In this document: piece after piece, positions 6,303 through 63,688 of the stretch
Layout: each line of letters begins with the position of its first letter
How positions within the stretch are numbered: the first letter of the stretch is position 1
Assembly: GCA_001661245.1 (NCBI GenBank)
Contig: KV454012.1
Span: 526,147 to 590,146 of the forward strand
Length of the DNA: 64,000 bases
Direction: 5' to 3'
Source of the DNA: Pachysolen tannophilus NRRL Y-2460
Lineage: Eukaryota
Program-made: the position numbers and the translations under genes
Notes under the pieces: generated by a model
Told to the model about the DNA's origin: nothing
Databases searched by the model: none
The model's input: the letters and a program-made list of their open reading frames with translations, nothing else

Positions 6303-7222
6303 ATGAGTACTGAACCATTGGAGTTTGATTCTTCAATTGCATCAAAGAGTATTTTTACAATTGCCGGTATTAAAGTTTATATATATGGATTATCTGATTT
6401 ACCAAAATCAGATATTACAAAACCAAAAGATGTTGCAGTTTTTTATATATTACATGGGAGATTATCATCACATAAATTTTCAGAATCATATGCTTATAAG
6501 GTATTAACAAAATATAAAGAATTGAAAAAAAAAATACTTTACCGTTGATTGGTATTACGTTTGATTTAGCAAATCATGGTGAACGGGTAGTAGATCCAAA
6601 TAGAAATTTAAGTTGGAATAAAGGGAATATGACACATCTGATGGATATGTGTTCAATCATAGATAAAGCAGTACAAGATTGTATGATTTTAATTGATTAT
6701 TTACCAAGTTATTTCCAAGGTTATCAATTCCATAATATAATTTTGGGTACTTCATTAGGAGGCCATGCTTGTTATAGATTAGCTGCAAAGATTCCTCGTA
6801 AAATAGAAATGATAATACCTGTAATTGGTTGTACAGATTTATGCTCTTTGTTGATCAATAGAGTTAAAAATTTAAATGGTAAAGATTTACAATTAGGATT
6901 ACGTAAATTATCATATGAAGATTTAAAATTAACAAAAGAACAACAATTTTTATGGCCAGAATATTTCCATAATTATTTATCAAAACAAGATTATCAAGTT
7001 GCAGAAAATTTTCCTAATCATGTTAAAGTATTTGCAATATTTGGCTGTCTTGATACAATTGTTCCCCCAATTTTTTCTAAAGAATGGACACAAGATATGA
7101 TTGAAAGAAGATGTTATGACGATTCAATTAAAGTAGAATATTTCGAAAAAATAGGACATCAGCATACCCTGGAAATGTGCGATGCTTATTCCAAATGGTT
7201 GGTGGAAAATATAACTTATTAG
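6303..7222 (+). CDS. Alpha/beta-hydrolase-fold protein split across two frames at the A10 run 6525-6534
   Basis: The 5' ORF has the oxyanion-type motif ILHGR. The 3' ORF has TFDLANHGER, nucleophile elbow GTSLGGH, FGCLDTIVP (Asp) and IGHQ (His). Adding one A joins them as ...ELKKKNTLPLIGITFD. Confidence 0.8.
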
Positions 7223-7409
7223 TATAGGAAGGACATTATATATAAAGTTAGTTCAACAAATTAAAAATAAATTCAATATTAAGGAAATAGTAACTGATAT
7301 AAAATAAAAACCCACAAATATATATATATATATATTATTAAAAATAACAAAATGAACTAAAGAAGCATAAAAAACAGAAAACAAAAAACAAAAAAAGAAA
7401 AAGGCAAGT

Positions 7410-10232
7410 TTAAATAGGTGTATATTTTCTAATAATTCTTCTTGTCCCATCACCAACAATAACCACTTTATTTTCATTCTCTAATCTTCTCAAAGCATCA
7501 CTCAACTCTATATTTTCAATCTTATCTTGCGATTGTTCATTGATTTTTTTCATTAAATCGCTATAAGAAATGTTATCACTGGAATCGTTCTCAATAATAG
7601 AATAAACTTGTTTTGAAAGATCTTCTTTTAATTTTCTTTGAGCTGAAGATTGTCCCGTTTGAACCAAATCCATATCAATTCTTCCTGTGATAGGATCTGT
7701 AGCATAATCTTTTATAGCAGACTTCATTAATCTGACAGCTTCAACAACATCTTCTAATTCAACTCTTTCGGATAATCTCATCTTCGCATGCGCTTCAGAT
7801 AATCTTATCATAGATTCCAATTGTCTGGTTGTAGCTGTAATTCTCTTTTCTTGGGATCTCACATCTTCACCCAATCTTCTCATTTCCACATAGGATTTAA
7901 CTAATTCTTCTTTACCTTCAGGTGTCATGATTGGTTTATATTTCTCCTTAGCGTATTGAATATACAGAGTTAAAAATTCAATTGGTAATATTTCTGATTG
8001 TGAAACGTTTTCTGGTGTGTCTTCGAGGTACATGTTTGTAATATGTCTTGCCAATTGTCTATCAATTTTTTCATCAACTCTATCTAAGATTAAGTAGACT
8101 AAATCAAATCTGGATAATAAAGGCGGAGGAAGATCAATGTTAGCAGTAACAGGTAAATTTGGATCATATCTAGAGTTGATTGGATTAGCAGAAGCCAAAA
8201 TGGAAGTTCTTGCATTCAAAGTGGTAATAATACCAGCTTTGGCAATAGAAATAGTTTGTTGTTCCATGACTTCATGTAAAACCGATCTTGTAGCATCACT
8301 CATCTTATCGAATTCATCAATACAACATACACCACCATCAGATAAGACTAATGCACCACTTTCTAAGACCAATTGTCTGGAATCAATATCTCTAGTGACA
8401 TAGGCTGTCAAACCAACTGCAGAAGAACCTTTACCAGAAGTGTAAACACCTCTAGGAGCAATCTTATGAACATATTGTAATAATTGAGATTTTGAAGTAG
8501 ATGGATCACCGCATAACAAAACATTAATATCTCCTCTATATTTACCACCTTTCTTGAAGACTTTGTTAGTACCTCCAAATAATTGTAATAAGATACCCTT
8601 TTTAACATCATCCATTTCGTAAATTGATGGTGCAAGAGATCTTGCTAACAATTCATAAAGGTCTTCTCTTTGAGAAACTTCTTCTATTTTATTGATTTCT
8701 TCTTGAGTTATTTTTCTTACTTCTTCGGTTTCTTGACTACTATTGACATCAATAGTAGTCTCATCAACACCTAATTTTTTACTGTCAACTTTTCGGATAT
8801 GAACTATATCTAAATATGTCTTATATAAAGATTTTAAAGTTCTTTGCTTTGAATTCATTCTAACAGGTAATGATCTAAATATACCGCAAACTTCAATTCT
8901 ATCACCTGCTCTGCAACTATCTACCAATTCGTCATAAACACATAGGGAAACAGAATGAGGTGTTTGACCATCAGGGATCATATCTGGAGTTTCTTGTAAT
9001 TTAATAACTTGTTTATCAGCAAAAGAAGATCTATTATGGACTAATTGCATCGAATTTGGTTGTTTACAAACTTCTCTTGGACATTTTGTTGGTTCTTGAA
9101 TTACACCTCTATCAATTTCAACTACTGTTGTATGATCACAGACTGAACACTTGAAAAATGCAACTTTCATATCTGGTATGATAGGTGTGCTACGAATCAC
9201 CAAACCTTTAACTGAAACTAATTTATCAATATCATTTGGATTTAATTCTCTCATTCCTTTATGAGATTCAATATTGTAAGGTCTAATTTTATAAATATTG
9301 GTTTCAATTTCGTCCACGTTGTAATCTCCTTCAGGGTTATTATCAACAACTAGTGAAACCATACAATCTTTAATTGTTTGATCCATAATTGGAACAACTT
9401 CTTGAGGATAGTTTAATAATTGGTAATATAATTTTTTAGTAGAAGGATATGCTAATAAATTTTTGGCGTCAAGATTTAAATTAGTTATTCCTAATTCTCT
9501 CATTGAGTTTAATTGATCCACATAGTATAATTCATTATCAATGGGAGTATTATATTCTATTTGATCCAATATTTTCCTATATTTCATCTTAAATGACATT
9601 AAAAAAGTTCTAAAATTGTTTGAACATTCTTGAATAGAAACATTAGTACCCCAAATAACTCTTATAGGTTCATTTATCTCTGTAGCATCTGAATTCAAAG
9701 TACCTAAAGAAGATGATGTATTAGCAATATTTTCTCCTCTTGTTGCTCCCGCAGTTGAAGATGGAATATCTTCTGTGAAAAATCTTCTATTCATTGGCGA
9801 AGAATTAACATCGGAAGAATGAATATCTCCTCTCAGACGAGGACGACGATGTCTTCTAGTACGATCACTAGATGAAATATTTTGTCCCGATCCCAAAGAA
9901 CCAAAATCAGAAGAAGCATGGTTCGATGAGGAATAATGTAACGGAGAAGAAACATCACCTAACCTCTGTGATATATTTTGGACCCTACTTCTCTGTTGCA
10001 AACTTTGTCTTTGAGAAGCACTTGGTGTAAAAGGTTCATTATTCCCATTTCCCTGATTACTATCAGATGGAATTTGAGACGAACTTGAAGGGAAAAACAA
10101 TGGTGATGAAGGAACAGGTGCTGCTCCTTCATTTTGTGTTAACGAGTCATGTTGAGTAGTTTGTGGATTAGTATCATTAGAATCATTTTGCGTGTCTCGA
10201 ATCGGTGATGAGCCTCCATGAGGAAGAGACAT
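7410..10232 (-). CDS. MCM4: Replicative helicase subunit Mcm4 (Cdc54)
   Basis: S/P-rich N-terminal tail, IWGTNVSI, zinc finger CSVC...CPREVC, Walker A GDPSTSKSQ (Mcm4-type), CCIDEFDKM, arginine finger LLSRFD, ITATTRQLES. Confidence 0.97.
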   Translation of the reverse strand: MSLPHGGSSPIRDTQNDSNDTNPQTTQHDSLTQNEGAAPVPSSPLFFPSSSSQIPSDSNQGNGNNEPFTPSASQRQSLQQRSRVQNISQRLGDVSSPLHYSSSNHASSDFGSLGSGQNISSSDRTRRHRRPRLRGDIHSSDVNSSPMNRRFFTEDIPSSTAGATRGENIANTSSSLGTLNSDATEINEPIRVIWGTNVSIQECSNNFRTFLMSFKMKYRKILDQIEYNTPIDNELYYVDQLNSMRELGITNLNLDAKNLLAYPSTKKLYYQLLNYPQEVVPIMDQTIKDCMVSLVVDNNPEGDYNVDEIETNIYKIRPYNIESHKGMRELNPNDIDKLVSVKGLVIRSTPIIPDMKVAFFKCSVCDHTTVVEIDRGVIQEPTKCPREVCKQPNSMQLVHNRSSFADKQVIKLQETPDMIPDGQTPHSVSLCVYDELVDSCRAGDRIEVCGIFRSLPVRMNSKQRTLKSLYKTYLDIVHIRKVDSKKLGVDETTIDVNSSQETEEVRKITQEEINKIEEVSQREDLYELLARSLAPSIYEMDDVKKGILLQLFGGTNKVFKKGGKYRGDINVLLCGDPSTSKSQLLQYVHKIAPRGVYTSGKGSSAVGLTAYVTRDIDSRQLVLESGALVLSDGGVCCIDEFDKMSDATRSVLHEVMEQQTISIAKAGIITTLNARTSILASANPINSRYDPNLPVTANIDLPPPLLSRFDLVYLILDRVDEKIDRQLARHITNMYLEDTPENVSQSEILPIEFLTLYIQYAKEKYKPIMTPEGKEELVKSYVEMRRLGEDVRSQEKRITATTRQLESMIRLSEAHAKMRLSERVELEDVVEAVRLMKSAIKDYATDPITGRIDMDLVQTGQSSAQRKLKEDLSKQVYSIIENDSSDNISYSDLMKKINEQSQDKIENIELSDALRRLENENKVVIVGDGTRRIIRKYTPI

Positions 10233-10797: not shown

Positions 10798-10869
10798 TCC
10801 GATGTAGTGTAACGGCTAGCACCGTCCGCTTTCACCGGGCAAACCCGGGTTCGACTCCCGGCATCGGAA
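10798..10869 (+). tRNA. tRNA-Glu (anticodon TTC), intronless
   Basis: Acceptor TCCGATG/CATCGGA; D stem GTGT/GCAC; anticodon stem GTCCG/CGGGC with loop CT-TTC-AC; T arm CCGGG-TTCGACT-CCCGG; T-run Pol III terminator at about 10877-10884. Confidence 0.96.
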
Positions 10870-11065: not shown

Positions 11066-13318
11066 TTAATTACCTTTGTAGATAAAACTTTCTAACGTCA
11101 AATTCCTTGCCCTTTCGTTGAACGAGTCTGTTAAACTTTTCGATCTTAGACCTGTATTACGATAATCTGTGGGTTTCCGCTTAATTCCAGGTTGTTTACT
11201 TAAAGTTTTTTCCAATTTAATTTTGGATCTTGGTTCTATTTTCGAATGGACTTTGTTTTCCAATAAATTAAGATTTTTCTCCAGTAAAGGTTGTCTCTTA
11301 TTTGATTTAACGTCATGTTTAACATTTCCTTTCAATTGTAGTAAATTGGTTTCAGGAGTATTAAAACTAAATTTTTGATTCAATCCGTTTCTTATGGTTA
11401 AAAATTTTTCATCGTTTTCAAGATCGGTTTTTTCAGTTATCAAAGTATTTCTCTTTCTATGAACTGGTGATTCAATTTCTGAAATATCTTCATCAATATC
11501 ACTCGATGCTAAAATGTGGCTCTTTAACTTGGTGTCATTAGTTTCCTCTGGTGCTGAAATTGTCGAAGATTTGTCACTTGCATTGCTGTTGGTTGGATGT
11601 GTTTGGGTCAAAATTACCAGCAGATCATCATTATTTTCATCATATTCAGATAATTCATCAACTTCAAAATCGCTAGAATTCAAAGCCTGATCTAAGATAA
11701 ACTTAGTATTTACTTTAGCAAAAGCCTCCTGCTTTGATGAAGTAGTTGATGACATCGAGTCATTATCTTGTTCAAAATCACTATATTCTAATTTTGGAAT
11801 TAAATTTTGGGATTCTAGTAGTATATCCTCATTTGGTTTATCATCCTTCGTTTCTAACTTTCCAGTGAAAAACTTACTTTTTGTTGGTATTACTAGATTA
11901 CTATCTTCATTATCATGCAAAAGTTTTTTCCTCTTTGTAGTTGGTGATGATATCGGTTTCTTCTTTTCAGAAACTGGTGTCAAATTCCCTGGATTCCCTG
12001 AATTCCTTGAATCTCTAATTCCTCTTTTCAATGGCGTTTCAGATAACTCCTTGTGATTTAACGACAGCATTGTATCAGTAACCTCTGTTTTAGCTACAGA
12101 AGTGGAAAAGGGGGAAAAAAAATTATCAATCGATTTAAATTGTGAATTTTTAGATTTGGCAAATGGAGTCGAATACGCTCTCAAAGACGATCTCGAAGTT
12201 GGATACTTATTGAGTAATGATGCTGTATGATCAATCATAGTTAATGTTCTTGTAGCTGTCACATTAGTCGCGGAACTAGCAGGTATTATTCTATGCATTA
12301 CTTCTCTTGATACAAGTGGAATTTTCTTTATAGGATCCAAATCTCCACAGGCAATCCCAATATGCATTGATTCATCCAACGTGTTCCCACTACACGATTT
12401 CAATAGCTCAGGCACTTCTTGTGGTAAATCATTCAAATGAGTTGATTTTTGTAACAAAGGATCAAATACTAATTGATATTGAAACGCCAAATCTGCTCTT
12501 TTGTATTCTTCCAAGAAATCAGGAGGAATTTTATATTTTCCTTCCAACTTCAATGCCAAAATTACCTTCTCCATTGTACTATATTTTTTCACAATTTGAA
12601 ATGCTTTGTTCACACCAATACCGCTGATACCTTTAGTATAATCACAACCACTAAGAGACGCGACCATTCTTAATTGTTCCTTTGTCATTAAATTAATTGG
12701 AACCTGACTACATTTTTTAAAATTTTCTCTACTAATCTCAACACATTCACCTTTATCATTCAATTTGGTAATCAATTTCTTACATCCAAAGATCAACAAA
12801 TCAGAGTCTTCACTAATAATCCCATCTACTAACCCTTTTTGTTCAAGATAAACCATTTGCGAATCGGCCTCATATGGCGCAACAACATACCGAATATTCT
12901 TAGCCTTTAACAGCTCAATTAAAGACTTGGCCATTGATGGAGTGATATCACAACATTTCTGGAAAAGACAATTGGCCAACTTATGGTTCCCATTTTGATA
13001 AGCTATTAAACCTTGCTTCTTACATTCCTCACGCTTCTTACTTCTTTCAAACTCGGTATTTGCCTTACAAGGTAAATAATCTCCATCAAAAACCATATAT
13101 GGAGTTATTCCAAAATGGTTCAACATCTCGATTCTTTTCAACACAAAATTTATGTATTTTCTGGTTGGTTTACCTTGAGCCAATTCAGTAGAGCACGATA
13201 TGATAGACCGGTGCAACCATGCGTACGTGTCAACCGCCAATATCTTCCCTTTATACCTCAACAAAGTGGTTGGTTCTTGAATCTGCTTTAGCGCAGGCAA
13301 TAAACCAGTGACACCCAT
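11066..13318 (-). CDS. EXO1: Exonuclease 1 (XPG/FEN1 family)
   Basis: MGVTGLLP...AVDTYAWLH, VFDG, APYEADSQM, IISEDSDLLIFG, SGCDY; an Mlh1-interaction-like KSKFF motif; C-terminal LESFIYKG. Confidence 0.96.
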   Translation of the reverse strand: MGVTGLLPALKQIQEPTTLLRYKGKILAVDTYAWLHRSIISCSTELAQGKPTRKYINFVLKRIEMLNHFGITPYMVFDGDYLPCKANTEFERSKKREECKKQGLIAYQNGNHKLANCLFQKCCDITPSMAKSLIELLKAKNIRYVVAPYEADSQMVYLEQKGLVDGIISEDSDLLIFGCKKLITKLNDKGECVEISRENFKKCSQVPINLMTKEQLRMVASLSGCDYTKGISGIGVNKAFQIVKKYSTMEKVILALKLEGKYKIPPDFLEEYKRADLAFQYQLVFDPLLQKSTHLNDLPQEVPELLKSCSGNTLDESMHIGIACGDLDPIKKIPLVSREVMHRIIPASSATNVTATRTLTMIDHTASLLNKYPTSRSSLRAYSTPFAKSKNSQFKSIDNFFSPFSTSVAKTEVTDTMLSLNHKELSETPLKRGIRDSRNSGNPGNLTPVSEKKKPISSPTTKRKKLLHDNEDSNLVIPTKSKFFTGKLETKDDKPNEDILLESQNLIPKLEYSDFEQDNDSMSSTTSSKQEAFAKVNTKFILDQALNSSDFEVDELSEYDENNDDLLVILTQTHPTNSNASDKSSTISAPEETNDTKLKSHILASSDIDEDISEIESPVHRKRNTLITEKTDLENDEKFLTIRNGLNQKFSFNTPETNLLQLKGNVKHDVKSNKRQPLLEKNLNLLENKVHSKIEPRSKIKLEKTLSKQPGIKRKPTDYRNTGLRSKSLTDSFNERARNLTLESFIYKGN

Positions 13319-13567
13319 TCCTTTACCAACAGAATTGTGCTGTATATTACCGTGTTCTTCTTTTATGAAATGGGTTTATAAAGCAACCAAATTCATTTGT
13401 TTACTCTTTTTTAATTTTTAAATGCACAAAAAAAAATAAATAAGAAACGAAAAATTTGGTGAAAAATTCCAAAAAAGAAAAATTGGACTTATCATTAATT
13501 CATCAGTAATTCAGCTCTTTATGAGTAGTTTTAAATTGGAGAAAGGAATCGGAAGTTCAGGTCTGGT

Positions 13568-14833
13568 ATGAGTGATGCTTATGGCAATGATACGGAGTTG
13601 AAATTGTTGAAGTTGAAGAAACTGTTCCCTGAAATTACAGATGATTCAATACTTTTGGAAATTTTATTATCCTGTGATGGCTCGTTAAGTAAAACCAGAT
13701 CAGTTCTTTCGGAGCAGTTTGAAATAGGTGAAAGTTGTGGTAAGAGGAAGTTTGATGAAGAAAGTGGTAGTTTTGGTTCTAAATATCAATCATCTATAAA
13801 TCATTTTTTCGATGGTGGGAGTAGTAAAAATAAGAAATTGAAATTAGAAATTAACAAGTCAAACACCAAGACTATCACGTTATATACAAAAGAAGATATT
13901 GAAGCTACAATACCTTATGTTACATTCCATAAGAATTTTTTACCTCCAGAAATTGCGGATAATGCTTTGAGATATATTTTACAACCAGAGCATCATTTAA
14001 AGGAGAATGAGTTTTATTTATTTGATAACAAATGTAAGTCTTCACACAAAAGTGGTATCTTTTCGAACCCGGATCCATTCATAACTAATTTAAGAACTAA
14101 TAGGGTCTTCTACGATGGGAAAGAAGTTAAAAATTTTAATTCTTATAACAACGATATGGGTATTATACAAGTGCTTATAGAGAACTTAATGGAGGAATTG
14201 AACTCAACGAGACAAAAGTTGTCACCATTTCAACCTACAGAGTGGAAAGGTGATGTATGTGTTGTGAATAGATATGATACAAAACAAGATCATTTAGATT
14301 GGCATTCGGACAAGTTAACAAATATGGGACCGTTGCCGACTATACTGTCTTTGTCGTTGGGTGCCACGCGAGAGTTTAAACTCCGTAAAAATCATCCTTT
14401 TGAAAACAATCCAAATCCTATACTTTCAATTCCTCTCCCACATAATACTCTAATAATAATGCATTCAGGATGTCAGGAAGAGTATAAGCATTGTGTAATG
14501 TCGTCATCAAGACCAATCGATGGACATACCATTTCAAAACAAGTTAGAGTAAATTTGACTTATAGATATTTTCATCCTCGCTTTCAAACTTCTAATTTAC
14601 CTAAATGTCCGAAATGTAAAAATTCAATGCTGTTAAGAAGGAGTTTTAAAAGTGTCACAAGCAGAGGGAAGTATATTTGGATGTGTATGGGAGGATACTT
14701 GGGGAAAAATTGTAATGGATTTCACTGGGCAAATTTCAATAAAAAAGATTTAATTACCGATGATGAAAATGACTGTTCTGAATGGATTGCAAAGGATGAT
14801 TATGAAAAATTGGATTATTTGGGTAGGAAATAG
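13568..14833 (+). CDS. AlkB (ALKBH2/3-like) Fe(II)/2-oxoglutarate dioxygenase with an N-terminal CUE-like domain and a C-terminal GRF-type zinc finger
   Basis: WHSD...YKH...RVNLTYR catalytic residues; PTI(A)SLSLGATREF; N-terminal LKK(A)FPE...LLEILL; C-terminal CPKC...GKYIWMC...C..FHW. Confidence 0.85.
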   Translation: MSDAYGNDTELKLLKLKKLFPEITDDSILLEILLSCDGSLSKTRSVLSEQFEIGESCGKRKFDEESGSFGSKYQSSINHFFDGGSSKNKKLKLEINKSNTKTITLYTKEDIEATIPYVTFHKNFLPPEIADNALRYILQPEHHLKENEFYLFDNKCKSSHKSGIFSNPDPFITNLRTNRVFYDGKEVKNFNSYNNDMGIIQVLIENLMEELNSTRQKLSPFQPTEWKGDVCVVNRYDTKQDHLDWHSDKLTNMGPLPTILSLSLGATREFKLRKNHPFENNPNPILSIPLPHNTLIIMHSGCQEEYKHCVMSSSRPIDGHTISKQVRVNLTYRYFHPRFQTSNLPKCPKCKNSMLLRRSFKSVTSRGKYIWMCMGGYLGKNCNGFHWANFNKKDLITDDENDCSEWIAKDDYEKLDYLGRK

Positions 14834-15133: not shown

Positions 15134-18100
15134 TCAAAAATGGACAAATCTTTGAGTTAAAGTATTGACGCCACCAGTAACACCGCTTTCAGGTAGCTTT
15201 GTCGGCTTCTCGTTATCCATCTTATCTCTAATACTCCTATGAATATGGCTTAAATAGTCAGAATATCCATATATCTTATCGGATGATCTGTCCTCGACCA
15301 ATATTTCTCTAAATTCTGCTTCAACTCCATCGATACCTTTACGGCATATTTGAACTGGAGCAAATTCCAAATTCATATAGTTTTTAGTGATAAAACTAAT
15401 TAAGTTAGAAACCTGTGTTGATATATGTGTATCCAATTGAGGCAATTCATCCAATAATGGATCTATTTCACTATATGTGTTGATATTAGGACCAAAAAGA
15501 TCTTTTAATAAAAGTGGATTAACCAGCTCATGAATGAAAATTATTATTTTATCTCCATTAAAAGCTAAGTAACAACCACCATATTCTATTGATGTTGAAG
15601 CCAGAGGAACATGGTGAGGCATTGAAAAATGGCCAGTTTCATCATCGAACATACAGTCTTCGTCTGCTAAACTGTGCAATGCTACAATCATTGGATATAA
15701 GTAGAAACTAATTTTATCCAGGGTCCAAAAGTTCAAAAAATGCCAGCTCATTACTTTTGAATCTCCATCTCGTAATCCAGACTTTACTAACTTGGTTTTT
15801 TGGAATCCTAAAATATACATGGCCAAGCAAGTTAAAGTTTCCGGGAAAACCAATTGATTTGGTAATGAAGTATGTGCAGCAACCACAGTTCTGTATTGAG
15901 TGAGCATATTTACCAAGTCCAAATTGGATAAGTTCCTAATAGATTGTAAAGTAGCAGTTGGTAATTTTATCAATTGCTGTTTAATCCATAAATTAAGAAC
16001 AGTATCTTGATCTGCCATTGCAAAAACATCAGCAGCACGATCACTGACAGCATTAACCATGTTGATAACTCTTACTTTTCTAACACCACACTTGTCCGTA
16101 TATAATAAAGCTGCTTGGAAATGAGCGTCAAGCTTTGTATCAAGTTTATCATCCAAAGTGAAGTCACACATAAATGTTTGATCTGAATTAAGAATTGGTA
16201 ATATAGGATCTTGTCCATCTTTTGAAGTGTAATTTCCGTAATAATTATGTAATTGTAAACCACTTGAACAACGAACTTTCAACTGTCCTTGATATCCAAC
16301 ATCATTTAAAATCGATGCTTTAAATTCAAAGACAAATTTACGTTCATCTCTATTGACGTTATAATTTCGATAAACTTTCAAATTTCCTCCTGTCTTATAA
16401 GTTACATGAGCAGTGTTACTAAGATCAACAGATGTATTTGAAATAACAAATAAGTCTAATCCAGCTCCTGAATCAGCATAATCTTTTGCAAGCATTTTAT
16501 AATAATTTTCATCTGCAGTTAAAACTTGCTTATCTCTTTCAACAATGTTTATATTTGAATCATCTTTATATTTTAAAGAACCTGGACCCCAACTTGGTAA
16601 TTTAGACAAAATAGCAGAGACTTTACCACCTCCAACTGATTTCAATGCATCTAATGCTACCCTTAATGCTGAACCGTAACAAGGATCTGGAATTTTGGAA
16701 TAGTCGTTAATTGATTCAAATTTACTTAAAGTATCTTCAATAATGGATCTTGATTCATTTGGATCTACAAAGAACCCTCCATAAAATGGAATAAATGGAT
16801 CATCCAAATCACTGACTGTAGATACAGATGGGGTCTGTAACGAAGGACTCAAATTATGGAAATGTAGACATCTATCAAAAGTGATAATTGCAATTTTGGA
16901 ATTTGGTGGTAAATTACTAGATTCTTTCCCACCATAAAGTGCTTGTCTTATAGCATCACTTGAACTACGAGGTAAATCAAGTGCAATTGAAGATTCACTA
17001 ATATCAATCAAGAAAACGTAATGCATTGGAACTGGTGGAACATCTTTTTCGACATAATATTCTTCTGGAACGATGAAATCAACTACTCCTCTATGTAATT
17101 CTGGACGTTGATAATAATCGACTCTTTTCCCAGTTACATCGATTGAAGAACCATAATTTGGAGGACAAGGACTTGCAAACTGACACATATTACAAACTAT
17201 TTTATAATCTGGTGTATGTTGCATTAATGGATTAATATAAGTACGACAACGGCGACATCTTGGAGGACCTCCAAACTCGGTCAAATCCACAACAGGAATT
17301 TCTTCCTTTTCAGCAGGTGCAAATGGTCTAAAAATTATTCCCAAAGGAAGTCTCGTTACTTTTAATAATTCTTTAGAAGATGGGATTGAGTATAAACTTG
17401 ATCTCATGAAATTTGGTGATGCAATTCCTTGATCTACAATTGTCGGTACTTGTACACCACATGGTGGTGGAGCAACATCTTGAAATGTTCTAAAATCTGG
17501 TTTAGAAGCCCAAACTTTCAGCAGCTCATTACGGTAACTTGAAAGCTGGATATGATTATCTGGTTGAAAATTCAGATTTACTCCCGTATCTGGTATATCT
17601 GTTATAACTTCTGTTGGGAAGACTAATTGTTCTGCACTATTTGGTAATTGGGGCACTGGCGGGGGCGGTGTAATCGGCACACTAGAACTGCTACCAAACT
17701 GTTGTTGATGTTGTTGTTGTTGCAGCTGCTGCTGTAGCACAGGTATCTGTTGTTGTTGTTGCTGTTGCTGATACTGCTGCTGTGTACTAGATGAAGATGA
17801 ATAAAATCTGTTTAAAGTTGGTTGTGATTGAGTTTGATGGAACAGAAGATACGAGTTGTCGTGCACGTTACTAAAAGGAACCTGGGATTGCAAATGCCTT
17901 AATTGCGGGTGTGTTGGTGACAGATGGAACGGCGCTCCCAATCCACCGGCGGTCCCTGTATATTGTTGTTGTTGTTGTTGTTGATGCAGTTGTTGTTGTT
18001 GAAAAGGAATTGTGTCCAATGAAAAATTACTATTCAGTGGTAACTGTTGATTTGATGAAGCCGCTGACATTGTAGTAGAACCAATTCCATGAGAATTTCC

Positions 18101-18460: not shown

Positions 18461-18530
18461 GATATAAATATTTAATTATAAATAAATAATTATATACATA
18501 CAAACAATATACATATATATATATATAAAT

Positions 18531-18561
<31 letters not shown>

Positions 18562-20330: not shown

Positions 20331-20361
<31 letters not shown>

Positions 20362-21352: not shown

Positions 21353-22321
21353 ATGAATTTAGATCTTAATTCAATTCAAACAGTTCCACATTGGAATGAA
21401 CGATATGAATCTTTTATTAGAGGTCCATATGATTATTTAAAGAATAAACCTGGTAAAGAACTTCGTACTTTATTAATAGCCAAATTTAATAATTTACTTA
21501 AAGTTGAACCCCTGTCACTGTTATCTTTGGTTGAATCAATAGTGGATATCTTGCACACAGCAAGTCTCTTGATTGATGATGTTGAAGATAGTGCTAATTT
21601 AAGAAGAGGATCTCCTGTATCACATCTGATATTTGGGGTACCTATGACTATAAATTCATCAAATTATATGTATTTTATAGCAATGTTTCAATGTCTACAA
21701 TTATCAAATTCATCAAACAAAATTTTTATTGAAGAAATGATTAATTTACATAGAGGTCAAGGTTTAGATCTTTATTGGAGAGAAAGTTTGATTTGTCCCA
21801 CTGAACAAGAATATATTGATATGGTTATGAATAAAACTGGTGGATTGTTTAGATTAGCTGTAAGGCTTTTACAAGAACAATCAAAATTAAAAGTAGATTT
21901 AGTACCTTTTGCAAACTTATTGGGAATAATATATCAAATAAGAGATGATTATTGTAATTTAACTACATACTCTAAAAATAAAGGATATTGTGAAGATATT
22001 ACAGAGGGAAAATTCTCTTTCCCAGTTGTTCATGCAATAAATTCAGGGGAAAATGGTAATAAAGAGTTAATGAATATTTTAAAATTAAGAACTGAAAGTG
22101 AAGATTTAAAAAAATATGTTGTTGAAGAAATCTTACAAAAAAAAACCAATAGTTTTAAATACTGTGAAGATACTTTAAATACTTTAAAAGTACAGGGAAA
22201 CCATTTATTGGATGGAATATTTAAAAGAATTAGGGAAGTGGATAATAGGCCCGATTTGGTGGATGATATTGATCTGTTAAGAGGTGTGTTATACAAGTTG
22301 TGTGACGTACAAGAATTTTGA
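21353..22321 (+). CDS. BTS1: Geranylgeranyl diphosphate synthase (type III)
   Basis: PGKELR, LHTASLLIDDVED..LRRG (FARM), LHRGQGLDLYW, NKTGGLF, YQIRDDY (SARM), EDITEGKFSFP. Confidence 0.95.
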   Translation: MNLDLNSIQTVPHWNERYESFIRGPYDYLKNKPGKELRTLLIAKFNNLLKVEPLSLLSLVESIVDILHTASLLIDDVEDSANLRRGSPVSHLIFGVPMTINSSNYMYFIAMFQCLQLSNSSNKIFIEEMINLHRGQGLDLYWRESLICPTEQEYIDMVMNKTGGLFRLAVRLLQEQSKLKVDLVPFANLLGIIYQIRDDYCNLTTYSKNKGYCEDITEGKFSFPVVHAINSGENGNKELMNILKLRTESEDLKKYVVEEILQKKTNSFKYCEDTLNTLKVQGNHLLDGIFKRIREVDNRPDLVDDIDLLRGVLYKLCDVQEF

Positions 22322-26740: not shown

Positions 26741-26774
26741 GTAACATAATATATATATATATAAAACGGTTTTT

Positions 26775-50494: not shown

Positions 50495-52522
50495 CTAGTT
50501 TTCCGATGAGAACGGTCCGATGAGGATGACGTTGACGAGGTTTCCTTTTTCCAACAACTTGTTTCCAGCATGTTGTTCTCTTGAAGGTAAGACGATTAAT
50601 GCATTTGCACCTTTGAAACTAGCAATTCTACTACTTCTTTGAAACCCGGTATTTTCAACAACTAATTCGAATTTCCCAGGTTCATTGGTCTTTGTCTGTT
50701 TGACAAATCCTCTTTGATATTCTGGTCTTGGATCTAGTTGGACATCGTGTATTAATCTTGCACGGACGGTAGGTAATGTTGGTAATTTTGGAGATTTTTC
50801 AAAAAAATTGTAACCTGAAAATAATCTTAAAGAAGGTAAAACAAATAAATGGAAACAAACTGTAGCTGAAGCTGGATTTCCTGGGAGGGCAAATATCACT
50901 TTTATCTTGTTGTTAAATTTCAATGTAGCAAAAGTTGTAGGCTTACCTGGCTTCATTTTGACTCGTCCAAAATGGATTTCACCATTTAACCTCCGCTCAA
51001 TTATAGGTTTCAATAAATCCAATTCACCCATAGAGACTCCTCCAGAAGTAATTAAATAATCAATTTTTTCATTATCAAAAGCATTTCTAATCAAATTTTC
51101 CAAACTACTCAGCTTATCGGATGCAATTCCCAAATCAATTGCATCAAAATTATTATCTCTAGTTACAGATAATAAAACAGGTCTGTTACAATCATAAATT
51201 TGACCATACTGTAATTCTGATGATTTATTATTATTCATAATATCAACTAATTCATCTCCTGTAGAAAGAACACCAATTAAAGGTTTTTCAAAAACTTTGA
51301 TATTTGAAATTCCAACACTAGTTAATAATCCAATTTCTCCTCCAGTTGCAGATATAACACTTTGCTTTTCCAAGAGAAGTTCCCCTTTTTTAATATCTGA
51401 ACCCTTTTCTCTCACGTTATCATTTTCCTTGACATCGGAAGCCAATATACAAACTTCTTTTTCTTCCTTACCATCATCAGTCATGGAAACTATTTGTGTC
51501 TCTTCAACCATTACAATGGCAGTAGCACCTTGTGGAATAGGTGCACCTGTAGTAATACGCGAAATCTCACCTGATTTCAAAACATGTTGCTCTTCAGTTG
51601 GAGAAGCATGTGAAACAGAAACAACTGAATATGTCCCAGGACCATCCGTATGAACTACAGCGTACCCATCTACTATACTTGCCCTAAAGTTAGGAACATC
51701 AGTAGGAGCATAAATATTTTCAGATAATACATATCCTGTAATGCTTTCGTTGTTAATGTTTTTCGATACAACTGTTGGCCGAGGGGTATTCTGTGATATC
51801 AAATTAAAAGCTTCATCCATTGATATCATTGGATAAGGTGAACTTCTTGACCGAGCTGTTATAGGACCATTTAGATCGTTTGAAATAAGTCTATGTTTTG
51901 ATATACCACAACTTTGTTTATGTGTTGAATCTCCATGATTATCATGATGATGTGAATGATGGCTATGACTATGCTCACGCTGATGACTTTTCAGTATCCC
52001 TTTGTGTAAAGCTCTGGAATCATCAATACCCAATTGATCCAATGCATGTGCTAGAGTCGGTAAAACTGCTTCAAGGTTTTCTACCGCACCTTTCGGTGAT
52101 CCAGGTAACGTAATAATTAAGGTATTATTTCTAACACCAGCTACAGGTCTTGCCATCATAGCAAATGGTGTTATTTTCAATGAATCAGATAACATTTTAT
52201 GGACAATTCCAATAGCTTCCTTATGTATTAGAGGTTTGACGGCTTCCGGTGTAATGTCTTTTTTAGAATAACCTGTACCTCCGGAAGTTAAGATTAAACT
52301 TAAATCATTTTCTTCTTTGCACCATTCGGTTAAAATTTTTTGAATATCATCTAAATTATCTGGAACAATAATGAACTGTTTGATTGAATAATATTTGTCG
52401 GTTCCCTCCAATGACTTATTATATTTTGAAAAACATTCTTTAATTGAATGGCTCGTTTTATCTAAAGAATTGTCTTTAAAACAAGTATCGGAAGAAATTA
52501 GAATACCAACATTAAACGACAT
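50495..52522 (-). CDS. cnxE: Gephyrin/CnxE-like molybdenum insertase (MogA G-domain, His-rich linker, MoeA E-domain)
   Basis: ILTSGGTG...DITPEA, LPGSPKG; RASIVDGYAV, RITTGAPIP, LSTGDEL, ITSGGVSMGELD, KPGKPT, LPGNPASA, DPRPEYQR, TGFQRSSR. ATG at 52522. Confidence 0.93.
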   Translation of the reverse strand: MSFNVGILISSDTCFKDNSLDKTSHSIKECFSKYNKSLEGTDKYYSIKQFIIVPDNLDDIQKILTEWCKEENDLSLILTSGGTGYSKKDITPEAVKPLIHKEAIGIVHKMLSDSLKITPFAMMARPVAGVRNNTLIITLPGSPKGAVENLEAVLPTLAHALDQLGIDDSRALHKGILKSHQREHSHSHHSHHHDNHGDSTHKQSCGISKHRLISNDLNGPITARSRSSPYPMISMDEAFNLISQNTPRPTVVSKNINNESITGYVLSENIYAPTDVPNFRASIVDGYAVVHTDGPGTYSVVSVSHASPTEEQHVLKSGEISRITTGAPIPQGATAIVMVEETQIVSMTDDGKEEKEVCILASDVKENDNVREKGSDIKKGELLLEKQSVISATGGEIGLLTSVGISNIKVFEKPLIGVLSTGDELVDIMNNNKSSELQYGQIYDCNRPVLLSVTRDNNFDAIDLGIASDKLSSLENLIRNAFDNEKIDYLITSGGVSMGELDLLKPIIERRLNGEIHFGRVKMKPGKPTTFATLKFNNKIKVIFALPGNPASATVCFHLFVLPSLRLFSGYNFFEKSPKLPTLPTVRARLIHDVQLDPRPEYQRGFVKQTKTNEPGKFELVVENTGFQRSSRIASFKGANALIVLPSREQHAGNKLLEKGNLVNVILIGPFSSEN

Positions 52523-56395: not shown

Positions 56396-58219
56396 ATGAG
56401 CGCTAGAAATTCACAAGAAGAAGATAGACCTTCATTGAATTATGCCGATGTTGAGAAATTCTCATCACTCGAAGATTCTCGTGCTGAAAATGATACTGAT
56501 AATATAGAGGAAACTGGACCTGTTAAAAATATAGAAGAGGATCAAAAGGATGAAGGGAACGTTGTTATGTATGATGAGAATGGTGAGGCTTTTAATGAAG
56601 CTGATGCTGGTGATGGTACAAAAGTTTCAGATCATTATCTGCACGGTCTGAAATTAATTCTTAATGTTATTTCCTGTATATTATGTTTATTCTTAGTGGC
56701 ATTGGATCAAACAATTATTGCTACTTTATTAACCGATGTTGGAGATCAATTTAATGATTTTTCTCAAGTTACTTGGATTTCTTCAGGTTTTCTCTTGGCA
56801 ATGTGTGTGGTTGCTGCTATTTGGGGTAAACTTTCTATAATTTTTGGAAGAAAATGGACATTATACGCGTCAATTGCATTATTTGAAGGTGGTTCATTAA
56901 TGGCTGCTTTAGCAAACACAATGAATATCTTGATTGGTGGAAGAGTCATGTCTGGAGTTGGTGGAGGTGGTATTCAAGCAATGGTATTCATCATTGTTAC
57001 AGAATTGGTTCCTATTTCTAGAAGACCATTACTTATGGCTGCAATGTCATGTACTTTTGCTGTTGCAAGTGTATTGGGTCCAATTATTGGAGGTGCATTC
57101 ACATCCCATGTCACTTGGAGATGGTGTTTTTATATCAATTTACCAATAAGTGCAGTTTCCTTAATTTTCATGTTTTTCGTTTATAACCCTCCAAGACCAA
57201 AAGGTGATTTTATTGCAAAATTGAAAATGATTGATTATTTAGGAGTTTTCTTGATGGCTTCTAGTTTAGTCTTGATATTATTGGCCTTAACTTTTGGTGG
57301 TGTAGAATATCCTTGGAGATCAGCAGCAGTTATATGTTGTTTTGTCATTGGTGGGTTGCTTTGGATTGTCTTTTGTATCTGGAATTTCAAATTTTCTAAA
57401 AATCCAATCATCCCATTATCCGTTGTTAGAGTTCCTCAATTGAATGCTTCTGCATTCACAGGTGGTTTCATGTTTATGTACTTTATGGCGCTGTTCATAT
57501 ATGTTAACATATATTTCCAAGTTGTTAGAGGTCTGGATGCTTGGCATTCAGGTATTGACTCGTTACCATTCATCATCACTGTTGTTATCTGCTCAATGTC
57601 CAGTGGTATACTTGTAGGAAAGACAAGATACGTTAAACCTTATTCCCTCTTTGGTGCTCTTTGTGGACCAATTGGTTGTGGTTTACTTTGTTTATTAAAA
57701 GTAGACTCTTCATCAAGTAATAGAATTGGTTTATTAATACTCGCCGGTGTTGGAGTTGGGCTCTTATTACAAACTTCAATGATTTCAGCTCAGCTTGTTG
57801 CTCCAAAGACAGAAGGTGGATTGATTTTAACAACAACTTTCTGTAACTTTGTCAGAGCTTTTGGAGGTGCCCTTGGTTCAGATTTAAGTGAAACTGTATT
57901 CACATCATCTGCGATCACAAAGATAGATGCAATGATTGCTGCAAATAAAGACACTGTTGATTTGAGTTCATTAGAAAGTATTGATATTTCTTCATTAATA
58001 AGTTCACCTGATCAAATTGACGCTTTAAGCACCGAAATTCAACTGCTTTTGAAAAACTGTATCATGGAAAGTATAAGAAATGTATTTTATATGTGTATTG
58101 GTATTGCTGGTCTTGCATTCATCTGTTCTTTGTTTATCACCAATAAACGTCTTCCACTGAAAGCTCCAAAGATTACCAACGATAAGGAAAAGGATGCGGA
58201 GAAGGAAGCCACACCGTAA
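56396..58219 (+). CDS. 14-TM DHA2 drug:H+ antiporter (Sge1/Azr1/Vba family), copy 1
   Basis: LFLVALDQTI, WGKLSIIFGRK, GRVMSGVGGGG, motif C LGPIIGGAFT, WRWCFYINLP, IYFQVVRG; 607 aa. Confidence 0.92.
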   Translation: MSARNSQEEDRPSLNYADVEKFSSLEDSRAENDTDNIEETGPVKNIEEDQKDEGNVVMYDENGEAFNEADAGDGTKVSDHYLHGLKLILNVISCILCLFLVALDQTIIATLLTDVGDQFNDFSQVTWISSGFLLAMCVVAAIWGKLSIIFGRKWTLYASIALFEGGSLMAALANTMNILIGGRVMSGVGGGGIQAMVFIIVTELVPISRRPLLMAAMSCTFAVASVLGPIIGGAFTSHVTWRWCFYINLPISAVSLIFMFFVYNPPRPKGDFIAKLKMIDYLGVFLMASSLVLILLALTFGGVEYPWRSAAVICCFVIGGLLWIVFCIWNFKFSKNPIIPLSVVRVPQLNASAFTGGFMFMYFMALFIYVNIYFQVVRGLDAWHSGIDSLPFIITVVICSMSSGILVGKTRYVKPYSLFGALCGPIGCGLLCLLKVDSSSSNRIGLLILAGVGVGLLLQTSMISAQLVAPKTEGGLILTTTFCNFVRAFGGALGSDLSETVFTSSAITKIDAMIAANKDTVDLSSLESIDISSLISSPDQIDALSTEIQLLLKNCIMESIRNVFYMCIGIAGLAFICSLFITNKRLPLKAPKITNDKEKDAEKEATP

Positions 58220-61602: not shown

Positions 61603-62002
61603 CGGTACTTTGAATTTGAATTTTCCCTAAATTTAGTACTAAAATCTTAACATTCTTTGATTTAATGCTGCTTTCAATCATGCCTCTATGCTTGTAAAGA
61701 AAGTAGTTATGATTATTTATTTTTTTGAGTTTTTTTTTTTAATCTGACCATATTGGATTGTAAGTGATGAAAAAAATGGTTTGTAGTTGTTCGAAACTTT
61801 AGTTTATCGATTGTAATGACCATCTAATTTGTAGCATATAAAAATGATGAATAATTCCATTCAAATTGAAGTAAATTTTTTTTTATTTTCATTAGTTGTT
61901 TATATTATCAAACAATAATAAAGATAAAGAGAATATATATATATTAAAAGAAAAATAAGATTAGTTTATAACAAATAAGAGTTAATATAATATAATATAA
62001 AG

Positions 62003-63688
62003 ATGTCACAAGTCGACACAGAAAATTTGTCATCGGCTCAAACGCCAGTTAACGATGATTTACAAGCCAAAACGGAAAATAACGAACAACCTTTGGCTAA
62101 ACATGATACAGTGCATAAGTTGATTGCCAAAAGACCACTGTCCAAATATTTAGGTGTTGCCATTGAATGTTTATTAGTTGCATTTGGTGGTTTTGTCTTT
62201 GGTTGGGATACCGGTACTATTGGTGGTTTTACTAATATGTCCGATTATAAAGATAGATTTGGTTCAAGACATTCTGATGGTACTGCATATCTTTCAAATG
62301 TCAGAACAGGTTTATTAGTTTCTATTTTCAATATTGGTTGTGCTATTGGTGGTTTAACATTAGCTAGATCTGGTGATATGTACGGTAGGAAAAACGGTTT
62401 AATTATTACCTTAATTGTTTATATCATTGGTATTATTATTCAAATTGCTTCAGTAAGTAAATGGTACCAATATTTCATTGGTAGGATTATTTCAGGTCTT
62501 GGTGTTGGTTCTATTGCAGTTTTATGTCCAATGTTTATTGCTGAAGCTTCTCCACGTCAAGTCAGAGGTGTCTTGGTTACTTCTTATCAATTGATGATTA
62601 CCTTGGGTATATTCTTGGGTTATTGTACTAATTATGGTACTAAATCTTATTCAAACTCAGTTCAATGGAGAGTTCCATTAGGTTTATGTTTTGCATGGGC
62701 TTTATTAATGATCTGGGGTTTAACTTTTATGCCAGAATCTCCAAGATATTTATGTAAAGTTGGTAGAATTGATGATGCAAAGAAATCTATTTCAAAAGTA
62801 AATAAAGTTCCATTAGATGATCCATTTGTTGATTCTGAAATTGATGTTATTATGGCAGGTATTGAACGTGAAAAATTAGCTGGTAATGCATCGTGGAAAG
62901 AATTATTTGTTGGTAAGCCAAGGATTTTCTACAGAGTCTTTATGGGTGTTATGATGCAATCATTACAACAATTAACTGGTGATAACTATTTCTTCTATTA
63001 TGGTACCACCATTTTCACTGCTGTTGGTTTAAGTGATTCATTTGAAACTTCTATTATTTTAGGTTTGGTTAATTTGGTTTCTACTTTTATTAGTTTCTAT
63101 GTCATTGGTAGATTTACAAGAAGACAAGCATTAATGTGGGGTTCAGCTGGTATGGTAGCTTGTTTAGTTGTTTATGCTTCTGTTGGTGTTACAAGATTGT
63201 GGCCTAATGGTTATAGTGCAGGTACAACATCTAAAGGTGCAGGTAACTGTATGATTGTCTTTGCATGTTTCTTCATTGTCTGTTTTGCAACAACATGGGG
63301 TCCAGGTGTATATGTCGTTATTTCCGAAACATTCCCATTAAGAATCAGACAAAAAGGTATGGCCGTTGCAACTGCAGCAAACTGGATCTGGGGTTTCTTA
63401 ATCAGTTTCTTCACACCGTTTATTACCACTGATATTCATTTCGCTTATGGTTATGTCTTCATGGGATGTTTAGTCTTCTCATGGTTCTTTGTTGGTTCTA
63501 TTGTCTATGAAACTAAAGATTTAAGTTTAGAAGATGTTGATATCTTATATTCATCTTCAGTTAAACCATGGAATTCTACAGCTTGGGTTCGTGAGAGAAT
63601 TGCAAACTCTGAAAAGACAGAACAAGAAAAATCTGTACAAGAAAAAAGTTCTGAAACTGAAAACGAAAATGCTAATGAATCAGTTTAA
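62003..63688 (+). CDS. Hexose transporter (HXT/GAL2-like sugar porter)
   Basis: [66 protein letters not shown]. Confidence 0.95.

What the first reader, a model, noticed from the sequence alone, without database searches (positions are those of the whole stretch)
6638..62140. Non-standard genetic code: CTG appears to encode Ala (table 26)
In-frame CTG codons fall where family consensus is Ala or Gly rather than Leu. Examples: AlkB PTI[CTG]SLSLG at 14345 (family PIIASLS); HXT KRP[CTG]SKY at 62138 (Hxt KRPASAY); MFS YT[CTG]MP at 45172 and FP[CTG]IFY at 44485; Ras AD[CTG]IILCY at 41232; hydrolase TH[CTG]MDM at 6638; DHA2 RG[CTG]DAW at 57533. The Yml6 presequence at 31848-31862 reads RRALATAT. 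This fits the CUG-Ala yeasts (Pachysolen, Nakazawaea, Peterozyma), and low GC plus a Moco gene fit Pachysolen. The code is already described, but it changes every translation in this window. Two ambiguous sites were seen: BTS1 21626, and DHA2 56639, which aligns with CTA in the paralog.
Basis: partly seen in the sequence, partly recalled or inferred. Interest (0 to 1): 0.75.

Follow-up and report, generated by a model that had tools for sequence, protein, structure and literature searches.

The report
Known CUG-to-alanine code of Pachysolen

Summary
Confirmed, and already known.

The window is Pachysolen tannophilus. One ORF is 99% identical to the NCBI protein PACTADRAFT_74385, which has Ala at all six CTG sites.

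In ortholog alignments of four genes, 19 of their 28 CTG codons could be scored. A Codetta-like score gives Ala +9.1 bits, Ser -8.0 and Leu -20.4, and 56 of 60 codons decode as standard. CTG sits in A/S/G-topped columns 9 of 19 times, against 6 of 224 for the other Leu codons (Fisher p = 5e-8). Eight further CTGs compared with solved orthologs face A, A, G, T/S, P, P, P and M, never Leu.

Evidence against, stated openly:
- 4 of 19 CTGs lie in Leu-topped columns. At 56639 Leu is in 106 of 119 homologs, and the tandem paralog has CTA.
- Pfam scores barely separate Ala from Ser.
- No tRNA(CAG) could be sought, because no genome is held.

Published mass spectrometry (97.2% Ala of 907 positions) and a tRNA-Ala(CAG) settle the mechanism (PMC4937558). 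This is NCBI table 26. Interest is low.

The parts
6638..62140 (.). Span of the finding. It holds 107 of the 113 CTG codons counted in the window's 24 ORFs of at least 150 aa, on both strands; the other 6 (2147, 2648, 4672, 4690, 4699, 4708) lie upstream of it. All are to be read as Ala (table 26).
   Evidence: codon list; statistics; species identity.
14345..14347 (+). CTG, AlkB-like 2OG oxygenase, aa 260.
   Evidence: Faces A in human ALKBH3. Pfam 2OG-FeII_Oxy_2 scores: A 92.0, L 90.9, X 89.9, S 89.2 bits.
12911..12913 (-). CTG, EXO1-like nuclease, aa 136.
   Evidence: Faces A in human EXO1.
41232..41234 (+). CTG, Ras-family GTPase, aa 84.
   Evidence: Faces G in Rap1b. Pfam Ras scores: A 148.2, S 147.3, L 146.8 bits.
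44485..44487 (+). CTG, TNA1-like MFS transporter, aa 179.
   Evidence: Column A 47, S 41, G 28, L 2 of 119.
45172..45174 (+). CTG, TNA1-like MFS transporter, aa 408.
   Evidence: Column A 80, C 14, S 12, G 9 of 119.
45220..45222 (+). CTG, TNA1-like transporter, aa 424. A contrary site in a Leu-type column.
   Evidence: Column L 49, I 28, T 23, V 7, A 1 of 119. L in all of the closest homologs.
57533..57535 (+). CTG, DHA2a transporter, aa 380. The same codon is at 60005-60007 in the tandem paralog.
   Evidence: Column A 83 of 119. CTG in both paralogs.
57491..57493 (+). CTG, DHA2a, aa 366.
   Evidence: Column S 47, A 18, G 13, T 12 of 119.
56639..56641 (+). CTG, DHA2a, aa 82. The strongest contrary site, in a conserved Leu column.
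   Evidence: Column L 106 of 119. The paralog has CTA at 59111-59113.
15602..15604 (-). CTG, Sfb3/Lst1-type Sec24, aa 953. A column split between Leu and Ala.
   Evidence: Column L 70, A 33 of 119. A in human Sec24C, C in Sec24D.
15719..15721 (-). CTG, Sfb3, aa 914. A hydrophobic column.
   Evidence: Column L 38, V 22, I 16, A 10 of 119. V in Sec24C, A in Sec24D.
48281..48283 (-). CTG, SIZ1 PINIT domain, aa 173.
   Evidence: T in S. cerevisiae Siz1, S in Siz2.
48170..48172 (-). CTG, SIZ1 PINIT domain, aa 210.
   Evidence: P in both Siz1 and Siz2.
7965..7967 (-). CTG, MCM4 lid domain, aa 756.
   Evidence: M in S. cerevisiae Mcm4, D in the next distinct MCM4 chain (entry 6raw), K in an archaeal MCM.
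51110..51112 (-). CTG, MoeA/gephyrin-like Moco gene, aa 471.
   Evidence: P in gephyrin.
31848..31862 (+). Three CTG codons in the mitochondrial L4 (Yml6) presequence, which reads RRALATAT under table 26.
   Evidence: The region does not align with S. cerevisiae Yml6, so it carries no weight.
31959..31961 (+). CTG, mitochondrial L4, aa 62.
   Evidence: P in S. cerevisiae Yml6.
21626..21628 (+). CTG, BTS1 (GGPP synthase), aa 92. An uninformative site.
   Evidence: Column S 15, K 14, R 12, T 11, L 9 of 101. S in a fungal GGPPS domain.
62138..62140 (+). CTG, HXT-type sugar transporter, aa 46. Not testable here.
   Evidence: Lies upstream of the Pfam domain, which starts at aa 56. The PDB search returned nothing at my threshold.
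6638..6640 (+). CTG in a putative alpha/beta hydrolase. Not testable here.
   Evidence: Only a sub-threshold Peptidase_S9 hit over aa 133-214 of ORF 6521-7219, away from the site.

Best explanation
The window is a piece of a nuclear chromosome of Pachysolen tannophilus. In this yeast the codon CUG is read as alanine (NCBI translation table 26). According to the literature, a tRNA descended from an alanine tRNA carries the anticodon CAG. It keeps the alanine identity elements (G3:U70, A73), so alanyl-tRNA synthetase charges it with Ala, and no tRNA-Leu competes for CUG. All 113 CTG codons in the window's ORFs should therefore be translated as Ala.

Shown here: the species identity, and the fact that CTG codons behave like Ala codons and unlike Leu codons in ortholog alignments. 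Taken from papers, not tested here: the tRNA and the peptide evidence.

Inferred: CTG is one mutational step from Leu, Val, Met, Pro, Gln and Arg codons but two steps from any GCN codon. New CTG codons therefore arise as replacements of those residues. This would explain the minority of CTGs found in Leu, Pro, Gln or Met columns.
For: (1) Species. ORF 43951-45510 matches NCBI PACTADRAFT_74385 [Pachysolen tannophilus NRRL Y-2460] at 99% of aligned residues. The NCBI protein has A at all 6 CTG sites and lacks 22 residues of the continuous ORF (an intron-like gap, with 4 mismatches beside it that look like alignment edge effects).

(2) Codetta-like tally. I used MAFFT alignments of four genes (DHA2a, TNA1-like, Sfb3, BTS1) with CTG masked as X. 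There were 119, 119, 119 and 101 homologs, all below 80% identity to the query. Over 19 CTG columns the scores are A +9.1, S -8.0 and L -20.4 bits. As a control, 56 of 60 observed codons decode to their standard residue; three of the four misses are rare codons with n of 3 or fewer, and the fourth is CTG. After thinning homologs to below 70% or below 60% mutual identity, A stays best at +9.1 and +7.4.

(3) Column classes. The top residue in CTG columns is A 7, L 4, S 2, K 2, T 1, Q 1, D 1, E 1. The log2 likelihood of this pattern is -46.2 if CTG behaves like GCN codons, -56.0 like Ser codons and -84.6 like the other Leu codons. A/S/G-topped columns: CTG 9 of 19 against other Leu codons 6 of 224, Fisher p = 5e-8.

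(4) Solved orthologs. Eight further CTGs face A (ALKBH3), A (EXO1), G (Rap1b), T/S and P/P (Siz1/Siz2), M (Mcm4), P (gephyrin) and P (Yml6). Leu appears 0 of 8 times.

(5) Pfam. Bit sums over 10 CTG-bearing domains are A 1329.9, S 1326.5, L 1325.1 and X 1322.7.

(6) Literature.
- PMC4937558 (abstract, sections 4 and 5, passages): of 907 fully supported CUG positions, 97.2% were Ala by LC-MS/MS. The tRNA(CAG) has G3:U70 and A73 and groups with alanine tRNAs.
- PMC5951914 (passages): the Ala clade comprises Pachysolen, Nakazawaea and Peterozyma.
Against: - 4 of 19 scored CTG columns are topped by Leu: 56639 (L 106 of 119, and CTA in the paralog), 15604 (L 70, A 33), 45220 (L 49, I 28) and 15721 (L 38, V 22). 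The rate for GCN codons is 8 of 127 (Fisher p = 0.052).
- The generic Pfam MFS_1 model scores Leu higher for both DHA2 genes: 156.2 against 152.2, and 148.2 against 146.1.
- Pfam sums separate Ala from Ser by only 3.4 bits. Several single sites favour Ser or Thr: DHA2a aa 366, SIZ1 aa 173, and BTS1 aa 56 and 92 against a fungal GGPPS.
- Only 27 of 113 CTG codons could be judged at all.
- No tRNA(CAG) could be looked for. The window holds only tRNA-Glu(TTC), and no genome is held.
Confidence: 0.97

Rival explanations
1. CTG is read as serine (table 12), as in the Candida (CUG-Ser1) or Ascoidea/Saccharomycopsis (CUG-Ser2) clades.
For: Ser and Ala are nearly tied in Pfam sums: S 1326.5 against A 1329.9. 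S is ahead for BTS1, PINIT and MCM_lid. Some columns are topped by S: DHA2a aa 366 with S 47 of 119, and Sec24C/D have S at aa 979.
Against: The Codetta-like score is S -8.0 against A +9.1 bits. The class likelihood is 10 bits worse than for Ala. Only 2 of 19 columns are S-topped, against 7 A-topped. The window belongs to P. tannophilus, for which proteomics shows Ala (PMC4937558).
Confidence: 0.01
2. CTG is ordinary leucine (standard code), and the Ala-like columns are chance or misalignment.
For: 4 of 19 CTG columns are Leu-topped, one of them very strongly (56639, L 106 of 119, with CTA in the paralog). Pfam MFS_1 prefers L for the two DHA2 genes.
Against: The other five Leu codons sit in L-topped columns 162 of 224 times (72%) and in A/S/G-topped columns 6 of 224 times. 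CTG sits in them 4 of 19 and 9 of 19 times (Fisher p = 5e-8). The score for L is -20.4 bits. None of 8 PDB-ortholog sites has Leu. Published MS also speaks against it (PMC4937558).
Confidence: 0.005
3. CTG is decoded ambiguously: mostly Ala, with a biologically relevant share of Leu. This would be comparable to the Ser/Leu stochastic decoding reported for Ascoidea asiatica, and it would allow CTG to persist at conserved Leu sites.
For: There is an excess of Leu-topped columns among CTG sites, 4 of 19 against 8 of 127 for GCN (p = 0.052). The column at 15604 is split, L 70 and A 33. The Ascoidea precedent is PMC6041473 (abstract seen in the search listing only).
Against: PMC4937558 (section 5) reports 97.2% Ala. 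It describes the remaining cases as similar in number to those seen for AUG, and calls CUG as unambiguous as AUG. The excess is borderline and has a simpler mutational explanation: CTA, CTT, CTC or TTG to CTG is one step. Nothing in the window bears on tRNA competition.
Confidence: 0.015

Closest known systems
NCBI translation table 26 (Pachysolen tannophilus nuclear code, CUG = Ala); Muhlhausen et al. 2016, PMC4937558
   Same: Same organism and same codon. The window shows the same signal: CTG falls preferentially in Ala columns. The database protein for this locus already carries Ala at the CTG sites.
   Different: Nothing differs. This window is simply an instance of that code. The only nuance is that a visible minority of CTGs (4 of 19) lie in Leu-topped columns, whereas the paper says CUG lies mainly at conserved alanine positions (passage).
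CUG-Ser codes (table 12; Candida CUG-Ser1 clade and Ascoideales CUG-Ser2 clade), PMC5951914
   Same: The same codon is taken away from Leu in budding yeasts by a tRNA with anticodon CAG. Like Ala, Ser is a small residue, so the two are hard to separate with coarse profiles.
   Different: The amino acid differs: here Ala beats Ser by about 17 bits. The clade also differs: the Ala clade is Pachysolen, Nakazawaea and Peterozyma.
Stochastic CUG decoding in Ascoidea asiatica (PMC6041473; abstract in the search listing only)
   Same: CUG is reassigned in a budding yeast. It would be the model for any residual Leu reading at conserved Leu sites.
   Different: Published proteomics for Pachysolen found no such ambiguity, and it was not tested here.
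Mitochondrial CUG = Ala in the Eremothecium branch (mentioned in PMC4937558, passage)
   Same: CUG is read as Ala.
   Different: That case is a mitochondrial code. It arose by changing acceptor-stem identity of a tRNA-Thr, not by an anticodon change in a tRNA-Ala. The genes in this window are nuclear.

Membership tests
CUG-Ala nuclear code (NCBI table 26) | In-frame CTG codons align preferentially with Ala in ortholog alignments. | tested here: met
   19 columns score A +9.1, S -8.0 and L -20.4 bits. 7 of 19 are A-topped. As a control, 56 of 60 codons decode as standard.
CUG-Ala nuclear code (NCBI table 26) | CTG does not behave like the other Leu codons. | tested here: met
   A/S/G-topped columns: 9 of 19 against 6 of 224, p = 5e-8. 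L-topped columns: 4 of 19 against 162 of 224. 0 of 8 PDB-ortholog sites have Leu.
CUG-Ala nuclear code (NCBI table 26) | The organism belongs to the Ala clade (Pachysolen, Nakazawaea, Peterozyma). | tested here: met
   99% identity to PACTADRAFT_74385 of P. tannophilus NRRL Y-2460. The clade definition is from PMC5951914.
CUG-Ala nuclear code (NCBI table 26) | A tRNA with anticodon CAG carries alanine identity elements (G3:U70, A73). | not testable with these tools
   The window holds only tRNA-Glu(TTC), and no genome is held. The tRNA is reported in PMC4937558, section 4.
CUG-Ala nuclear code (NCBI table 26) | No competing tRNA-Leu(CAG) or tRNA-Ser(CAG) is present in the genome. | not testable with these tools
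   No genome is held.
CUG-Ala nuclear code (NCBI table 26) | Peptides show Ala at CTG-encoded positions. | not testable with these tools
   Literature only: 97.2% of 907 positions (PMC4937558, section 5).
CUG-Ser code (table 12) | CTG codons align preferentially with conserved Ser. | tested here: not met
   2 of 19 columns are S-topped. S scores -8.0 bits against A +9.1, and the class likelihood is 10 bits worse than for Ala. Pfam sums alone are inconclusive, S 1326.5 against A 1329.9.
Standard code (CTG = Leu) | CTG codons fall in the same kinds of columns as TTA, TTG, CTT, CTC and CTA. | tested here: not met
   The log2 likelihood is -84.6 under Leu-like behaviour against -46.2 under Ala-like behaviour.

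The most novel reading that the evidence does not exclude
A site-specific minority of CUG codons in Pachysolen, those sitting at conserved Leu columns such as 56639, 15604, 45220 and 15721, might be tolerated because they are read as Leu at an appreciable rate, for example through wobble by a tRNA-Leu(UAG). The code would then be partly dual, as in Ascoidea, rather than cleanly Ala. A milder version is that CTG codons mark recent one-step replacements of Leu, Pro, Gln or Met by Ala. In that case their placement records where radical changes are tolerated.
Probability: 0.03. Interest if true: 0.65.

Novelty: already known. Interest (0 to 1): 0.12.

Why it matters
The matter is practical rather than conceptual. 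Any annotation of this window with the standard code would put Leu at 113 positions that are really Ala, across 22 of the 24 ORFs of at least 150 aa. The code itself has been in the literature since 2016 and has an NCBI table number, and the public protein records for this locus already use it. It also shows that, at this scale, the signal separates Ala from Leu easily and Ala from Ser only moderately.

Tried and rejected
- Whole-genome access for a tRNA(CAG) search: none is held. ARAGORN, with and without intron mode, finds only tRNA-Glu(TTC) in the window.
- Pfam bit-score comparison of the L, S, A and X translations: too coarse, with at most 7.2 bits between any two sums. The X run also lacked the first Met of the minus-strand genes through my coordinate slip.
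- BTS1 homologs: all four CTG columns are variable and uninformative. One search timed out, so one search used 101 of the 150 hits (those 250-479 aa long).
- PDB search for the HXT N-terminus: my 1e-18 threshold returned nothing.
- Hydrolase at 6638: no usable family match.
- Earlier notes of this scan: none exist for this genome.
- Sequencing runs: 5 holders in 2 studies, and no RNA holder listed. I did not lay reads. The holders are near-identical to the window, and the CTG codons of any 20-kb stretch (e.g. 48 codons, 144 bases, in 13500-33000) offer almost no chance of an informative variant.
- Paralog comparison: the two DHA2 genes differ at 125 of 607 codons, and only one difference involves a CTG (CTG against CTA). 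This is too few to test whether the change is synonymous.
- I checked whether non-Ala CTG columns are enriched for one-step neighbours (L, V, M, P, Q, R). The counts are 5 of 19 against 22 of 127 for GCN, p = 0.35, not significant.
Full report
**What the window is**

The window is 64 kb with a GC content of about 0.30. It holds 24 ORFs of at least 150 aa. Pfam names typical yeast nuclear genes among them:
- MCM4
- an EXO1-like nuclease
- an AlkB-like oxygenase
- an Sfb3/Lst1-type Sec24
- DER1
- BTS1
- a PSP1-domain protein
- mitochondrial L4
- an AGC kinase
- a Ras-family GTPase
- a TNA1-like MFS transporter
- SIZ1
- a MoeA/gephyrin-like Moco gene
- a UBA protein
- two tandem DHA2 transporters
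- an HXT-type sugar transporter

The TNA1-like ORF (43951-45510) matches the NCBI protein PACTADRAFT_74385 of Pachysolen tannophilus NRRL Y-2460 at 99% of aligned residues. The NCBI gene model lacks a 22-residue intron-like stretch of the continuous ORF; four mismatches next to that gap look like alignment edge effects. Its contig length, 2,193,613, equals that given for proteins the tool marks as the window's own. The window is therefore P. tannophilus nuclear DNA.

**The observation**

The 24 ORFs contain 113 CTG among 14252 codons.

**Test 1: Pfam scores under different codes**

I translated 12 genes with CTG as X, L (table 1), S (table 12) or A (table 26) and compared Pfam bit scores.
- Over 10 domains that hold a CTG, the sums are A 1329.9, S 1326.5, L 1325.1 and X 1322.7.
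- The direction fits Ala, but the margin is small.
- The generic MFS_1 model prefers Leu for both DHA2 genes. The more specific TRI12 model prefers S or A for the same genes.
- Pfam families are too broad to settle the question.

**Test 2: ortholog columns**

I collected homologs for four genes, each queried with CTG masked as X: DHA2a, TNA1-like and Sfb3, and BTS1.

Rows and columns I dropped:
- Hits above 80% identity to the query were dropped (P0001, P0121, P0241). These are the window's own proteins or its paralog.
- For BTS1 I kept 101 of 150 hits (those 250-479 aa long) after a time-out.
- Columns with more than 20% gaps were dropped. This leaves 19 of the 28 CTG codons of these four genes. 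The nine dropped are TNA1 aa 6 and 9, and Sfb3 aa 13, 142, 158, 180, 206, 246 and 296.

Results:
- A Codetta-like log-odds sum gives A +9.1, S -8.0, L -20.4 and T -20.5 bits for CTG.
- The same procedure decodes 56 of 60 observed codons to their standard residue. Three of the four misses are rare codons with n of 3 or fewer; the fourth is CTG.
- After thinning the homologs to below 70% or below 60% mutual identity, A remains best at +9.1 and +7.4.
- By top residue, the 19 columns are A 7, L 4, S 2, K 2, T 1, Q 1, D 1 and E 1.
- Against the empirical column classes, the log2 likelihood of this pattern is -46.2 for 127 GCN columns, -56.0 for 173 Ser-codon columns and -84.6 for 224 columns of the other Leu codons.
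- CTG falls in A/S/G-topped columns 9 of 19 times, against 6 of 224 for the other Leu codons (Fisher p = 5e-8).

**Test 3: solved orthologs**

Ten PDB searches gave pairwise alignments. For eight CTGs outside the four families, the residue opposite is:

| Site | Opposite residue |
|---|---|
| AlkB-like 14345 | A (ALKBH3) |
| EXO1-like 12913 | A (human EXO1) |
| Ras-like 41232 | G (Rap1b) |
| SIZ1 48283 | T (Siz1), S (Siz2) |
| SIZ1 48172 | P (Siz1), P (Siz2) |
| MCM4 7967 | M (yeast Mcm4), D (MCM4 chain of entry 6raw), K (an archaeal MCM) |
| MoeA-like 51112 | P (gephyrin) |
| Mitochondrial L4 31959 | P (yeast Yml6) |

Leu appears at none of the eight. Human Sec24C/D show V/A, A/C and S/S at Sfb3 aa 914, 953 and 979. 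A fungal GGPPS domain shows T, S and S at BTS1 aa 54, 56 and 92.

**Results against the reading**

- Four of the 19 scored CTGs lie in Leu-topped columns:
  - 56639: L 106 of 119, with CTA in the tandem paralog.
  - 15604: L 70, A 33.
  - 45220: L 49, I 28, T 23.
  - 15721: L 38, V 22, I 16.
- That rate (4 of 19) is higher than for GCN codons (8 of 127), with borderline significance (p = 0.052).
- Ala and Ser are separated by about 17 bits in the column test but only 3.4 bits in Pfam sums.
- Only 27 of the 113 CTGs were judged at all. The rest lie in low-complexity or unalignable regions, or in genes I had no search left for.

**Mechanism**

The mechanism cannot be tested from this window. The only tRNA gene is tRNA-Glu(TTC) at 10798-10869, and no genome is held. 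It is, however, published for this species.

PMC4937558 (abstract, sections 4 and 5 and passages read) reports:
- The Pachysolen tRNA(CAG) groups with alanine tRNAs.
- It has G3:U70 and A73 and lacks a long variable arm.
- Of 907 fully supported CUG positions, 97.2% were Ala in LC-MS/MS.
- The residual cases were no more frequent than for AUG.
- CUG lies mainly at conserved alanine positions.

PMC5951914 (passages) places Pachysolen with Nakazawaea and Peterozyma in an Ala clade. The public proteins for this locus already carry Ala at the CTG sites: 6 of 6 in P0121 and 12 of 12 in P0241.

**The Leu, Pro, Gln and Met columns**

This paragraph is my inference. CTG is one substitution away from CTA, CTT, CTC and TTG (Leu), GTG (Val), ATG (Met), CCG (Pro), CAG (Gln) and CGG (Arg). 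It is two substitutions away from every GCN codon. Under the Ala code each newly arisen CTG is therefore a replacement of one of those residues by Ala.

Three observations fit this:
- The CTG/CTA pair in the DHA2 paralogs.
- The three Pro, one Gln and one Met columns.
- CTG lies next to a Gln codon in 19 of 113 cases (17%), against 7% for GCT and for GCA.

A direct test for enrichment of one-step-neighbour columns was not significant: 5 of 19 against 22 of 127, p = 0.35. I therefore offer this as an explanation, not a finding.

**Verdict**

The thing itself is the known nuclear code of the type species (NCBI table 26). It matters for translating this window correctly, but it is not new.

Noticed in passing
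window 56396-58219 and 58868-60691: Two tandem DHA2-type transporter genes of equal length. They differ at 125 of 607 codons, 71 of them synonymous under table 26. Five CTG positions are shared and one differs (CTG against CTA at aa 82).
   Followed up: partly
window 48995-49194 and 52707: A run of 200 N lies inside ORF 48935-49894 (minus strand), and a single N lies at 52707. They are either an assembly gap or a masked stretch. I left that ORF out of all searches.
   Followed up: no
window 6255-7222: The putative hydrolase seems to be split. An open frame at 6255-6548 contains a Met and hydrolase-like sequence. It overlaps a second frame at 6518-7222 that holds the rest. This suggests a short intron or a frameshift. 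The only Pfam match is a sub-threshold Peptidase_S9 hit.
   Followed up: partly
window 43951-45510: The NCBI gene model for the TNA1-like transporter (497 aa) lacks 22 residues that are present in the continuous 519-aa ORF. The annotation therefore removes an in-frame stretch as an intron.
   Followed up: no
all 24 ORFs; e.g. 24719-24772, 17725-18037, 30603-30621: CTG codons are often embedded in Gln-rich tracts. 19 of 113 are next to a Gln codon (17%), against 7% for GCT and for GCA. This is as expected if many arose by CAG-to-CTG changes.
   Followed up: partly
window 4672-4710: Four CTG codons lie within 13 codons of ORF 3919-5799 (H-X-DLLDL-X-NL-X-NS-X-DAP). Read with Leu, this looks like a Leu-rich amphipathic motif. 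Read with Ala, it continues an Ala-rich stretch. No homologs were examined.
   Followed up: no
P0074 and P0217: Two database proteins are labelled as prokaryotic: an Asgard archaeon MAG and Lacticaseibacillus paracasei. They are 51-52% identical to these yeast transporters and sit among Candida hits, so they probably come from yeast contamination in those assemblies.
   Followed up: no
window 10798-10869: tRNA-Glu(TTC) on the plus strand is the only tRNA gene in the window.
   Followed up: yes
window 48170-48172, 51110-51112, 31959-31961: Three CTG codons face a Pro in the nearest solved orthologs (Siz1/Siz2, gephyrin, Yml6). CCG to CTG is a single change.
   Followed up: partly
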